Shown: piece by piece, positions 487-53,561 of the stretch | How positions within the stretch are numbered: position 1 is the first letter of the stretch | Layout: every line of letters starts with the position of its first letter | Assembly (NCBI RefSeq): GCF_964355755.1 | Contig: NC_092674.1 | Span: 23,560,001-23,624,000, forward strand | Direction of reading: 5' to 3' | Source: Antedon mediterranea | Lineage: Eukaryota > Animalia > Echinodermata | DNA length: 64,000 nucleotides | Program-made: the position numbers and the translations under genes | Notes under the pieces: model-generated | What the model was told of the DNA's origin: nothing | The model's database searches: none | Seen by the model: only the letters and a program-made list of their open reading frames with translations

Positions 487-562
487 TTATGATAATGTAT
501 CGGAGCCCAACGTTTTCTCCTTTTCCTGTGTTTTCACTGAAACAAGTTCTGGCTTCGTATTC
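487..562 (-). CDS. SLC10A7: SLC10A7 candidate terminal exon 11b encoding [29 protein letters not shown]
   Basis: ttgttctttcttag acceptor in the correct phase, open to TAA at 489-487. Confidence 0.65.
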
Positions 563-3500
563 CTAAGAAAGAACAAACATTTCTGAATCAATAATATACA
601 GAAAGATGAAAGTTTAATCTCTGTCCGAGCCATATATAAATTTGACAGTTAAACCTTTGTGAACGGTATGTATTTTTTATATTTCATACTCTATAGCTGG
701 TAGTGTACCATGTTGATTTTCTAAAAATCTGTGAATAGAATGTCATAACTCTTTACATATATGGCTCTTAATCTCTGTTGCCGTGTGTGTTAAAGAGTAC
801 CTATTGAATAAATTCCATTAAAAAGCCAGAGGTCTAATGGTTAGGACATCTATTATTATATCAAGCAGAGGGTTCTGAATTTTGGCTGGGGCGGCTCATT
901 TATTAACAAGAGAACTCCAAACCTCCTATAAGTTTATGATATTAAGTTATGTTTATTTTATTTGACAATTTGAAAGTGAATGACTAAATTTTGGTAATCA
1001 AATTTAAATTTTAATTAAATAATTATAATTATTTGAATTTAGATTGGCAGAATAGAAAGAATCTTTGAGTATTTCGATTAGTAATGGTTTTATAGAAACC
1101 AGAGGTGGATTGCTATAAGCGGTCTATAAAAGGTCTTAGCGCTTAGCCGGCTATAATTCGTGATGTAGCAAATTGTCTTTATTATAAACCATTGCTAAAC
1201 CGCGGTCTAACTTGTAAGTGGTCTTTAAAATTGAAGCCTCTACTCAAAGGAGGCGTACTGTTGTGATTGTGAATTGAGCAAGAATGATGAATATTACCTT
1301 ATTTGGTATTCTACGTCCTCAATTTGATACTGTACGCAGTCTTAGCTAAGACTGTTTTATAGCAAAAAGGGTGGTTTATAGTAAGACCATCTATCTAATA
1401 AAGCCGGCTTTAATTGGGGAGTTAAGACCATCAGTTAAGACTGTTTTATAGCAATCCGCCCCTGTGCTATTCTACTTACAGAATGGGTTGGATGACATGA
1501 AAGATAGAATGCAGCAAGGAAGGCTCACACCACACCAGGAGTGTTCCTTAAGAAAGAATAAACAACAACCAATCACCAAAAGTAAAATACTACATACAGA
1601 TAATTAGCATATCCAGGTGTGTATACGTACATAGTGAAATAACTTTAATTTATGTAGTCAATTCTACAAAACCTGATACACAGGGATCATGTCAAAATTA
1701 CTTTACTGCAGTCACTGCAGTAACTACAGTTTTACTGCAGGAATGTAAACAAACTGTCCTAACTGTGGTAGAATAATTTGACATAATCCCTCACTACAGT
1801 TTTCTGTTTGTTCAGTCCAAAATTGTTATTTCCAACCATTTACATATTTGACTTGCACACCTGCATATGATATTAATACACAACTACAACTCTTTATACA
1901 AAACAACCAAATTCTTTAGAATTTATAAACCCCTACCTTATGGACTAACACAAATATAACAAGTTGTGTGTAATAATTTGCAACAACCAAGGACCAACCT
2001 AGGTCAGGTCATCAATCGATGTGTCGTCAATCAAGCCATAGAAACAATCAAACCTGTGTTTAGGCGAGGAGCGAGGACGCACATCCCAATAAACTAACAT
2101 GGCGCAGTTTAGTCGTCAATCGTCGCAAATTGAAATTTCCATATTCTGCTTAGTTGCACCAATTAAACCATCTGTATTTCTGTTAAAATTAGTCTAGTTG
2201 TACAATACAATGACAGAGCCTTCTATTTGCCTAGAAAAACTCTGGTGCGTTAACATTTTCTATCTCTGTATGTTGTGCAAACTCTGATGTTTTACTAGGC
2301 AATGTAAAAGGGATAGAAGTGTCTTTTGCATTATTACATAGTGAGCGTTAGTAAAAATATTGGAGTGCATATTTATTTTGGTGTGGACAATTTGATAACA
2401 AATACCTGTTAAAATCAACTAAAACCACCAGAATACAGTAACATATTTAACACAAAAAAAGGGGTTTTAGGTTAAAGCGAAGTTTAATAAAAAAATATGT
2501 AAACACAAAAATAAAATACTAAATATTCAAACCTTGATTTGATTGCAGTTGTCATCCAGTGTTTGATGGAGTTCACCAGGAATCCACCGAGTAGGATCTG
2601 AGTTGGATGGTAGACCAGTAGTGGAATGGATATCAAAGAGAGGTAGTCGTAACCAGCATAAATTATTTTCAACATTGGTATACCTGTATTAAATAAGAAA
2701 AACATGAAAATGACAATCTACTATGCAGAACAGTTCTATTTAGGGGACACTCTTATTTTCCAGTGAAATGAACAAGGGGCAATATATTCTTTAACACTGT
2801 GAGGGCGTGTGGTGCTGTGTGTTGGACGTTCGACTACTGATCGTTAGACCGAGGTTCGAATCCAACTCTCGCCGCATTGCTTGTATCCTTAGGCAAGATA
2901 CTTTACTTACGTTTGCCTCTCTCCACCCAGGTGTATAATTGGGAACCCGGTTAGATCAAGACACAACTTTGCGCTGATTACTAGCTGCATATATGGGAGT
3001 ATGTTTCCATAGGTGTTTGATCAGGAAATGACTGGGGTAATAATGTTCAGCGCATTGAGAGCTTGCTTATATGCGCTATATAAGAATGAACTATTATTAT
3101 TATTATTAACACTATAGCAAACCTATAGAGACAACTTGGGATACATTACTGGGTCCCAAAAGTGTCCCCTTAATGGGGTTCTATTGTGATTATCTTTATC
3201 TTAGTTGCCACTGATGAAGATAGGCTGTGTGACAAATTTCTCCACATCTTTCTCATACACAATAATTTCATCCATTTCATCCTCTGTCTCCCTCTATAAT
3301 TATTGTAAATTGCTGGTTCAGTAACGATTTGTTCACAAAATGTGTATGTACACAAAAAAAATGATTTGAGAGGTAAATTTATCATACAAAAAATTGTTTA
3401 AAAAGTGTATGATTCTGCAAGTTTTTGCTTATGGGAGAATGGCCATACAAGTAGTTTTTATGAAATAATATTATAAATGTAATGTAATTTAAAAAATAAA

Positions 3501-6500
3501 TATATATATATATAAATACAAAAAAAAGTAGGTGGTGATGTACCTTAAGAAAACTTAAAATAATACGATTTAAAGACAATTCGAAAACTTTGCATATGAC
3601 TGCTCATCTCCAATAAGCACAATTTTTAAATTTATCAATCAACCATCATTGAAACCAAGTAAATATTGATGAAATATGGATTTGAATAATTTTATTTCAT
3701 CCTCGTTTTGCAATCACTTGGCAATCACCTTACTTACCCAATGTCAAAGACTTGTGTGTTGCACAGTACATGATAGTCACTGTATCTCCAGGTTCAAAAC
3801 CTAGCCTAGGGTGCTTTGATAGAAAGAATGCTAGGCTTATCAAAAATACTTGTAATGAAAATACTAGGAAAATAAAAAAAAACACATTATCTGTTAATAT
3901 CAAACAACATTTTTATTTAAGCGAATACAGTATTCAACTTCTACATTCATTCCATTTCATTGTAAAAATTTACAACCATTCTCCTGATAAAACATTTTAA
4001 CTACTACTACTAGTGTAATTTACTGTCATTTACAGTGGCATTACGTTTACAATGATCAGTTGATTGCAGGCTAGTAGGCAGGTTCTGACAAGGGGATACA
4101 GGCCTGGGGACAGGGCCTTCTTAAAGGCCTGGTTGTGCGCAGCATGAAGCCCTGATTAGGCCTGGAATCGAAGCCAGCGCACTTCCAGTGTTAAGAAGCG
4201 AAATTCAGTGCTTGTATATATTATACTTTAGGCTAACAATTTGAGTTCATATCGACCAAAATTGCAAAACTCTTTTCTACAAACTGAAGAATTTTTCGTA
4301 CCAATTACGGCTATTGCAGCTAAACTGTATCTGTCCATTTCTAAAGCAGGATTTGAGAATGTGTCACAAAAGGTCGTGTAGATAATCAGGAGTAGAACAC
4401 CTTGCCCTACCTGACCAAAGGGGGGCTTGGTTCGCTCTAACCATTCTTTAATGTATCGACGACTTATCTACAAGAGAATGAATAATATTCATTACTTCAA
4501 TAACAATGAATACATTTTCAAAATCCATTCGTAATTTCACTGAAAAGACCTAAACAATTCAATTCAAGGTATATTTATTCATTCAAAGAAATCATACAGG
4601 TAGCCAACGGCTAAAATGAGTTCAATTTTACAGATATAAAAACTAACGTACATTATATAGTAAACAACAACAACATTTTGCATAATAAGCAACCCACCAC
4701 TTTGAAATACTGTAGGCACCTAGGCATTGAGCTGATGGTTTTTATTCCTATTCCAAGTAGCTCATGCGCTCATTTGAGTGGGAATGGTAATGTCCGATTA
4801 AAAGTTTAAGCTGCTTTCACATCGCACCTGGATTCAGCGCCCTGAGAAAAATATTGCAAGCCTTGAGCATGTTTTCACATCGCTCACGAATTTGGTTTTC
4901 CAGTATCCAACAAGATAATTCATGCTCATTGTTATTTGGTTAAAAGAAAACAATTGTATGATTTCAGGAAACAAATGGCTTCGTGATCAATCGCTCTGAA
5001 TTCGGAGCCTGAATCAGGTATGGATTGGTGTAAATGCTATGCTTTACCACTGAACCATTTTCTACAATATTTTTCTCAGAGAGCTGAACCGAATTCGGGA
5101 TTTATATATTTATTTTGTTGGGGAAACTAATAAAAGCACAAATTGTTCATAATACAAAAATATTCAGGGGACACTTTCCTGTGAAATTAACAAGCGGAAA
5201 TGTATGTTTAACACTATGTCCAATTAAGGTTTTTGCATGACACTGGCATGATAGTCTAGTGGCGGTTCCAGGATTTTGAAATTGGGGAAGCCCAGGGCCT
5301 AAAAATGGTCCCCTCCCCGCCCCCCCCCCCCTTGAATCTGCCTATGATAGTATAGTTATTTGGCCTAATAATATATTTTATCTAACTTACCTGACCAATG
5401 ATAAGAGGAACAACAACAGTCATAGTTAATGTCATAAATACAGAACTATATGGAACTGTTGAAGAAGAGCCAAGCTAAAAAATAACAAATTTATTGATTT
5501 AAGTCACCACAACATTGAACCATCATTTGCTACAATTTTTTTGGAGCCATTTAAAATATCATATAAATTTGGACTTTTAAGTACAAAATGCATAAAGCCT
5601 CTATGCACTTCACATAAAAATAAAAGTAATCCATGAAATAAATAAAATAAAAAAGAGCAATGAAAAATGAGAGTGACAGGCCATAAAATATATGGATCTC
5701 AACTGAAGTATATGCCCGGTTGGTATAGTTTTGTATTAATTTGTTAGTTACACTTTTTTAGACACAATTGGCATTCTGTTAAAGTTATATTCTTTTTCAA
5801 ATATAGTTATTTTTATGTTATAAGGAGAGAATATACATTTTTGTTTCCAGCTCAAGTAAAGGTTGGGTCATGTGTGCAAAAATGTTTTTCTCTTTCAAAT
5901 GTTAGGCCGAATCACTTTATAGAAATCTTTTGTTATGACTCTTTTCTTTAAAATCGTTTACATTTAATTAATTCAAGTATTCCTAAACATACACATGTTA
6001 GTAAATTATGTTTACTATAGACTTATACATTAATTGGGTTTAGGCCTAGAATATCAGCATCACTAAAAAAAAAATTTAATGCCACGATTTTCTCATTAAC
6101 AATGTATTTCCTGCGCTATTCACAATATAATTTATGCGAGAAACTTTAAGCAATGCTATCCATCCACCGTAACATGCGCTTTTTATTTTTAACAAATCAA
6201 TCAACATTTTATCTAATTTTATTGCGTTCGCAGCGAGGACCCTGGTTCCGTAATTCCAAACACGTATGAAAATGTTATAGTCATTGACGAAAATGCACAT
6301 GACTGTCATGTCAAAATGTTTGAATCGTGTCGCGTAATTTGTTTCCGAGTTTGACAAATGATAAAGTCGCCCCCATCTTAATGATTAATTTCCTTATAAA
6401 TATATAATGACGATATTAACAGACTTACAAATGCAAGAAGCATCATTTTCTTATCGCCTTTACGTAACCATCAGTATTTAAAATTTATGAGTATCAAGCG

Positions 6501-53230: not shown

Positions 53231-53447
53231 ATTTCTTAGTGAATATATGAGAAGAAACAGATGCCCTTGTAAATATAGATCGAATTCTTTCCAAACGGGC
53301 TCAACGTCATTTACCTCACTAAGAAAGAATACACTTATCAGAGGAATTATTTTTTTTCGACTAAGCTCAAATCGACCGCTTTTTATAGTGTCTGTGACGG
53401 GATTTGGCAGCGCTTTTTTATGCTGAAGTCGAAGGAGCATTATTACG

Positions 53448-53561
53448 ATGCATACGATTCACCCCGGCCTAACTGCGACTCCGAAATACGCGCAACTTCA
53501 TCACCGACATGACCGCACTCAAGATTTCATGCGCAGACACTGTATGCCCAATCCGTCTTCG
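53448..53561 (+). CDS. POU4: POU4 (Brn3/acj6/unc-86 class) transcription factor, first coding exon MHTIHPGLTATPKYAQLHHRHDRTQDFMRRHCMPNPSS
   Basis: PKYxxLH and MRRxCMPNPS match the POU4 N-terminus (vertebrate KYxxLHS...MRRACLPTP, fly acj6 MRRCMPNPS). Phase-0 gtaagt donor sits directly after the motif. Synteny with OBI1 and SLC10A7 supports the call. The downstream exons were not found in this window. Confidence 0.85.

What the first reader, a model, noticed from the sequence alone, without database searches (positions are those of the whole stretch)
487..53561. SLC10A7-OBI1-POU4 linkage looks like the pre-duplication ancestor of the human POU4F1 and POU4F2 loci
Seen: SLC10A7(-), OBI1(+) and POU4(+) in that order. 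Known: in human, OBI1/RNF219 lies just upstream of POU4F1 on the same strand (13q31), and SLC10A7 is divergent from POU4F2 (4q31). This invertebrate has both neighbours with both relative orientations. Inference: this is the ancestral single locus, and vertebrate ohnologs lost OBI1 and SLC10A7 reciprocally. Such long retention suggests a genomic regulatory block, with POU4 enhancers in or around the two housekeeping bystander genes.
Basis: partly seen in the sequence, partly recalled or inferred. Interest (0 to 1): 0.85.

Follow-up and report, generated by a model that had tools for sequence, protein, structure and literature searches.

The report
Ancestral POU4 neighbourhood in feather star
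A feather star carries the sensory-neuron gene POU4 beside two housekeeping genes that humans keep next to two different POU4 copies; this likely preserves the arrangement from before vertebrate genome doubling, is probably held together by POU4 enhancers, and was already catalogued in a 2020 study.

Summary
The window matches the crinoid Antedon mediterranea: SLC10A7 (minus, 11 coding exons), OBI1/RNF219 (plus, 7 exons) and exon 1 of POU4 (plus), each matching an NCBI protein on one 31.9-Mb contig. The POU and homeodomain exon lies beyond the window. Touceda-Suarez et al. 2020 (PMC7530604, Table S1) list POU4F1=RNF219 and POU4F2=SLC10A7 as one ancestral multi-bystander regulatory block with differential retention, and list a duplicated conserved element in an SLC10A7 intron and near POU4F1. 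The same pair, 293 nt apart, occurs in metagenome locus L007, probably a mollusc; it was seen in 1 of 11 OBI1 loci. The two genes share a contig in 6 of 6 echinoderms and hemichordates where both were retrieved. A shared promoter is therefore a likely second constraint. No enhancer was shown in the crinoid.

The parts
487..15923 (-). SLC10A7 ortholog, 11 coding exons (isoform X1); first bystander
   Evidence: Exact exon map of XP_071950994.1; Pfam SBF_like; two spliced joints with minus-strand GT-AG ends in run X1
1525..1546 (-). Alternative last coding exon of SLC10A7 (isoform X2)
   Evidence: C-terminus of XP_071950996.1 read in the window behind an AG acceptor
15924..16160 (.). 237-nt gap between the divergent SLC10A7 and OBI1 start codons; likely a shared bidirectional promoter
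   Evidence: Sequence; spliced OBI1 contig of run X1 begins at 16139; same geometry in L007. Promoter function inferred
16161..32481 (+). OBI1/RNF219 ortholog, 7 coding exons (RING, coiled coil, long low-complexity tail); second bystander
   Evidence: Exact exon map of XP_071950992.1; homologs; 1,936-nt spliced contig in X1, 16139-32657
32658..53293 (.). About 20.6 kb without a recognisable coding gene between OBI1 and POU4; candidate enhancer space
   Evidence: No Pfam match among the ORFs scanned; dispersed repeats. Enhancers not shown
53294..53561 (+). POU4 exon 1 (leader from at least 53294; coding 53448-53561, 38 codons, phase-0 donor)
   Evidence: 100% match to XP_071950987.1; a 1,975-nt X1 contig lies on 53294-53562 without a difference and then leaves, while DNA contigs run on
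53562..64000 (+). POU4 intron 1, at least 10.4 kb; the POU and homeodomain exon lies beyond the window
   Evidence: No match to residues 39-309 of the protein in the window

Best explanation
The window shows SLC10A7, OBI1 and the first exon of POU4 in one block, which is likely the arrangement inherited from before the vertebrate genome doublings and is probably kept intact by POU4 enhancers lying in and around the two housekeeping genes, with a likely shared promoter tying those two genes to each other. Shown: the three genes, their order, strands and the 237-nt head-to-head gap. Published: both pairs are ancestral and were split between POU4F1 (kept OBI1) and POU4F2 (kept SLC10A7). Inferred: after duplication each copy lost the exons of one or both bystanders but kept regulatory DNA, which explains a conserved element present both in a human SLC10A7 intron and in gene-free DNA near POU4F1. 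Inferred and untested: that crinoid SLC10A7 and OBI1 introns hold enhancers that contact POU4. Odds: ancestral linkage about 0.93; enhancer constraint acting in this crinoid about 0.65.
For: Orthology and geometry. SLC10A7 and OBI1 on contigs of the same length in 6 of 6 species where both were retrieved (Antedon, Anneissia, Ptychodera, Glandiceps, Saccoglossus, Strongylocentrotus), including scaffolds of only 431 and 589 kb; consecutive accessions in 3 of the 4 where both accessions were seen. PMC7530604 Table S1: POU4F1=RNF219 conserved in 2 and POU4F2=SLC10A7 in 5 non-vertebrate species, both flagged as differential bystander loss; Table S4: duplicated element McEwen 141. Head-to-head pair in L007, whose OBI1 falls outside the deuterostome rows.
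Against: No enhancer, contact or conserved non-coding element was found or testable in the crinoid. POU4 linkage in other invertebrates rests on the paper, not on my calls. Crinoid bystander introns are modest (SLC10A7 up to 2.6 kb, OBI1 up to 7.5 kb), while introns over 10 kb mark human bystanders (PMC3514665 passage). The pair is not universal: 10 of 11 metagenome OBI1 loci show no SLC10A7, among them three with 3-8 kb upstream, and L002 has an ALG8-like neighbour instead. Contig length and accession order are proxies for adjacency; Glandiceps accessions are about 700 apart. No contig of the laid runs spans the whole block.
Confidence: 0.7

Rival explanations
1. The linkage is ancestral, but only SLC10A7 and OBI1 are under constraint, through a shared bidirectional promoter; POU4 stays next to them through slow rearrangement, with its crinoid enhancers confined to the 20-kb gap and its own long intron.
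For: 237-nt and 293-nt gaps in crinoid and L007; gaps under 1 kb are called a signature of bidirectional promoters in PMC3514665; over 30 kb of non-coding DNA flanks POU4 exon 1; no specific motif excess in bystander introns.
Against: Does not explain the duplicated element in a human SLC10A7 intron and near POU4F1, nor why each vertebrate POU4 copy kept one bystander after the pair was split. The two promoter gaps show no sequence likeness (257 of 500 shuffles score as high).
Confidence: 0.25
2. The three genes came together independently in crinoids, or are joined by an assembly error.
For: Short-read contigs tile 40.0-55.9 kb only in pieces broken at repeats.
Against: Both human pairings are reproduced; the pairs are reported in other invertebrates; SLC10A7 and OBI1 are linked in five other species and L007.
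Confidence: 0.03

Closest known systems
Ancient GRB pairs 21 (POU4F1=RNF219) and 22 (POU4F2=SLC10A7), Touceda-Suarez et al. 2020, PMC7530604, Tables S1, S3, S4
   Same: The same three genes, the same inference of one multi-bystander block with differential bystander loss among ohnologs; Fig. S1 by its legend draws such blocks in amphioxus, acorn worm or sea urchin (picture not seen).
   Different: No crinoid among the species named in the methods I read; pairs are treated one at a time; I saw no mention of the sub-300-nt head-to-head SLC10A7/OBI1 gap; the pair POU4-SLC10A7 is labelled 'Deuterostomes', whereas L007 suggests SLC10A7-OBI1 is older.
HEY-HDDC2-MRPS28 block (same paper, Fig. S2 legend)
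   Same: One developmental gene, two bystanders, reciprocal retention by vertebrate paralogs.
   Different: It has 4C and reporter evidence in zebrafish; the POU4 block has only a duplicated conserved element in what I read.
Ancient head-to-head co-regulated pairs such as HSPE1-HSPD1 (Irimia et al. 2012, PMC3514665)
   Same: Divergent housekeeping genes under 1 kb apart, conserved across distant animals.
   Different: SLC10A7-OBI1 was broken in vertebrates, is absent from several sampled animals, sits inside a developmental block, and co-expression is untested.

Membership tests
Genomic regulatory block (criteria of PMC3514665) | A developmental transcription factor linked to unrelated non-developmental genes | tested here: met
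   POU4 with a transporter and a RING ligase
Genomic regulatory block (criteria of PMC3514665) | Linkage conserved across distant lineages | tested here: met
   SLC10A7-OBI1 by contig and accession and L007; POU4 pairs from PMC7530604 Table S1, read but not recomputed
Genomic regulatory block (criteria of PMC3514665) | Extensive intronic sequence in the bystanders | tested here: inconclusive
   Introns 0.2-7.5 kb, none over 10 kb; no genome-wide baseline because the genome is not held
Genomic regulatory block (criteria of PMC3514665) | Conserved non-coding elements in bystander introns | not testable with these tools
   No second crinoid locus available; vertebrate element McEwen 141 from Table S4
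Genomic regulatory block (criteria of PMC3514665) | Enhancers in bystanders that act on the target promoter | not testable with these tools
   Needs ATAC, 4C or reporters; motif counts gave nothing specific
POU class IV | POU-specific domain plus homeodomain in the same protein as exon 1 | tested here: met
   PF00157 E 3.9e-30, PF00046 E 3.4e-17 in P0001; the join of exon 1 to them rests on the NCBI model, with an RNA contig leaving at the donor
POU class IV | Closer to class IV than to other POU classes | tested here: met
   Atlas hits 1 and 3 are named class 4 (0.98, 0.97), PIT1 scores 0.90; NCBI name. No tree was built; the PDB list held no class IV chain
SLC10A7 | SBF_like transporter closest to SLC10A7 | tested here: met
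   Named hits are 'sodium/bile acid cotransporter (7)' or uninformative; 67% to a mammal
OBI1/RNF219 | N-terminal RING plus coiled coil grouping with OBI1 orthologs | tested here: met
   the two crinoids group together (SH-aLRT 99) and with urchins (92) in a quick tree
Bidirectional-promoter gene pair | Head-to-head, under 1 kb, orientation conserved | tested here: met
   237 nt in the window, 293 nt in L007; seen in 1 of 11 loci
Bidirectional-promoter gene pair | Mapped divergent start sites and correlated expression | not testable with these tools
   Only contigs were available, which cannot show starts or levels

The most novel reading that the evidence does not exclude
The POU4 block is doubly locked: its two bystanders share one bidirectional promoter under 300 nt that dates to the protostome-deuterostome ancestor, so the human OBI1 and SLC10A7 promoters are the two surviving halves of one duplicated promoter, and the POU4-OBI1 link may reach back to a non-bilaterian such as Trichoplax.
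Probability: 0.4. Interest if true: 0.45.

Novelty: already known. Interest (0 to 1): 0.27.

Why it matters
POU4 genes specify sensory neurons across animals (recalled; abstract of PMC12626421 says so for cnidarians, ascidians and mammals). A compact intact copy of the ancestral block gives a map for finding homologous POU4 enhancers and predicts where to look in humans: SLC10A7 introns for POU4F2, and the gene-free DNA beyond OBI1 for POU4F1. The core idea is published, so the gain is one more species and the shared-promoter detail.

Tried and rejected
Whole-genome checks: no genome held. POU exon in the window: none. Hidden gene between OBI1 and POU4 or in the intron: 0 Pfam matches in 105 of 264 ORFs, chosen by length and GC. 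Frameshifted POU4 N-terminus: an ATG at 53420 is out of frame, and the X1 contig shows no gap there, so it is read as an overlapping upstream ORF, not an assembly error. POU4-type and bHLH motifs (recalled): one AT-rich 9-mer was in excess in SLC10A7 (8 against 2.3; 1 of 200 block shuffles), but 18 of 256 A/T-only 9-mers did as well or better, so rejected. Promoter gap likeness, window against L007: none. POU4 in the 11 metagenome loci: no hit, but flanks are too short to count. No listed holder run is on record as RNA. Decoding the paper's ancestry key: the last digit goes with 'Metazoans' in 2 of 2 rows compared and with Trichoplax in the HEY legend, but ISL2=SCAPER does not fit a simple species order, so it stays a lead. 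McEwen 2006 not held; Irimia 2012 supplement not readable, and it may list these pairs. Earlier scan findings: none. The first OBI1 tree was the quick fallback, not the careful search.
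Full report
Verdict. One feature was missed: the two housekeeping genes are a tight head-to-head pair.

What is in the window. Protein searches returned NCBI proteins of the crinoid Antedon mediterranea that the window encodes exactly, all on one contig of 31,901,198 nt. SLC10A7 (XP_071950994.1) maps to 11 minus-strand exons from 15923 to 487 and OBI1 (XP_071950992.1, named only 'uncharacterized protein') to 7 plus-strand exons from 16161 to 32481. SLC10A7 is 67% identical to the chinchilla protein over 338 residues. 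The OBI1 RING exon is 89% identical to Anneissia ORC ubiquitin ligase 1-like. The stretch 53448-53561 is the first 38 residues of XP_071950987.1, a 309-residue protein with POU and homeodomain whose nearest Atlas clusters are class IV.

The rest of POU4 is not in the window, so intron 1 exceeds 10.4 kb. In run X1 a 1,975-nt contig lies on 53294-53562 without a difference and its other 1,706 nt lie nowhere on 40000-55900, while contigs of X2, X3 and X5 (one sample) run straight through the donor. That is what a spliced transcript would give. I did not see the downstream letters, so the join to the POU exon rests on the NCBI model. X1 is RNA only by guess, but it also holds spliced OBI1 and SLC10A7 contigs with canonical ends.

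Other invertebrates. No eukaryote genomes were searchable, so I used contig length and accession order as proxies. SLC10A7 and OBI1 lie on contigs of the same length in 6 of 6 species where both were retrieved: Antedon, Anneissia (430,654 nt), Ptychodera, Glandiceps, Saccoglossus (589,090 nt) and Strongylocentrotus. Accessions are consecutive in Antedon, Anneissia and Ptychodera, about 700 apart in Glandiceps, and not seen for SLC10A7 in the other two. Three further OBI1 proteins (Owenia, Lingula, Diadema setosum) had no partner to compare. I retrieved POU4 for Antedon only, so its linkage elsewhere was not tested by me.

The head-to-head pair. The SLC10A7 and OBI1 start codons are 237 nt apart. 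A metagenome scan with an OBI1 alignment gave 11 loci. One, L007, carries five SLC10A7 exons on the opposite strand, with 293 nt between the likely start codons. Its OBI1 falls in an unnamed clade (SH-aLRT 97) outside the deuterostome rows of a quick tree. A mollusc is likely, from recall and a weak Atlas hint (TM 0.19), but is not shown. The other 10 loci show no SLC10A7: one has under 100 nt upstream, six have 0.5-1.6 kb (one is fish-like), and three have 3-8 kb. L002 has an ALG8-like neighbour, and L008, whose best matches are in the same clade as L007, lacks the pair. The pair is thus old but often broken. The two gaps share no sequence likeness.

What is in print. For Touceda-Suarez et al. 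2020 (PMC7530604) I read main-text parts 1-4 of 5, supplement parts 1-5 and 33 of 80, and rows found by search. Table S1 rows 21 and 22 are POU4F1=RNF219 (2 non-vertebrate species) and POU4F2=SLC10A7 (5), both marked MULTI BS and DIFF_OHNO, which the legend defines as an ancestral multi-bystander block with differential bystander loss. The Fig. S1 legend says such blocks are drawn for amphioxus, acorn worm or sea urchin; I could not see the picture. Table S3 gives the human order EDNRB, POU4F1, RNF219 (10.7 kb away), RBM26; SLC10A7 117 kb from POU4F2; and RBM27 beside POU4F3, which kept neither bystander. Table S4 lists a duplicated conserved element in an SLC10A7 intron (chr4:146,443,787) and in gene-free DNA near POU4F1 (chr13:78,774,181). 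With recalled human coordinates that second copy lies beyond the 5' end of OBI1, where the crinoid order would put an eroded SLC10A7. For Irimia et al. 2012 (PMC3514665) I saw passages only; its supplement was unavailable. McEwen 2006 was not held. All other papers were seen as search listings with the start of the abstract. Main-text searches found no paper on the three-gene block or on an SLC10A7-OBI1 promoter; they do not cover supplements or most subscription journals.

How it most likely works. Shown: order, strands, spacing, splicing of the bystanders. Published: ancestry of both pairs and reciprocal retention. Inferred: POU4 enhancers spread through the 20.6-kb gap and into the bystanders, so breaks between the genes are selected against; a shared promoter separately ties SLC10A7 to OBI1; genome doubling freed each copy to lose bystander exons while keeping enhancers. 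The weak step is the enhancer constraint in the crinoid itself. Its bystander introns are modest, motif counts were unspecific, and no contact data could be tested. The main rival, a promoter-locked pair with POU4 as a passive neighbour, keeps about 0.25.

Scores. Already known; interest 0.27. The boldest reading not excluded is a bilaterian-age bidirectional promoter inside the POU4 block, split between two human chromosomes (probability 0.4, interest 0.45).

Noticed in passing
window 53420-53512: An out-of-frame upstream ORF of 30 codons overlaps the POU4 start codon and lies inside the transcript contig of X1, with no gap; it could dampen POU4 translation.
   Followed up: partly
window 53100-53155: Two copies of a 12-nt word holding a reversed CCAAT box (label recalled), about 40 nt apart, some 140-190 nt upstream of the 5' end of the POU4 contig.
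   Followed up: no
window 31699-31815: A 30-nt tandem repeat (3.9 copies) inside the last OBI1 coding exon; run X1 lacks one 30-nt unit, an in-frame length variant.
   Followed up: no
window 16161-16238: Both crinoid OBI1 proteins have cysteine at RING position 25, where nearly all other homologs printed have glycine.
   Followed up: no
window 12364-12546: A perfect 30-nt minisatellite (6.1 copies) in an SLC10A7 intron.
   Followed up: no
window 60632-60854 and 61461-61683: A 223-nt direct duplication, 98% identical and 829 nt apart, in POU4 intron 1.
   Followed up: no
L002:2590-2853 (minus): An ALG8-like glycosyltransferase exon lies upstream of OBI1 on the opposite strand, in place of SLC10A7.
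   Followed up: partly
L008:14741-17195 (minus): A neurotransmitter-gated ion channel gene lies downstream of OBI1 on the opposite strand; no SLC10A7 in 8 kb upstream.
   Followed up: partly
human loci, PMC7530604 Tables S3 and S6: The ohnologs RBM26 (next beyond OBI1) and RBM27 (beside POU4F3) suggest a further pre-duplication neighbour on the SLC10A7 side; the window ends 486 nt past SLC10A7, so this could not be checked.
   Followed up: no
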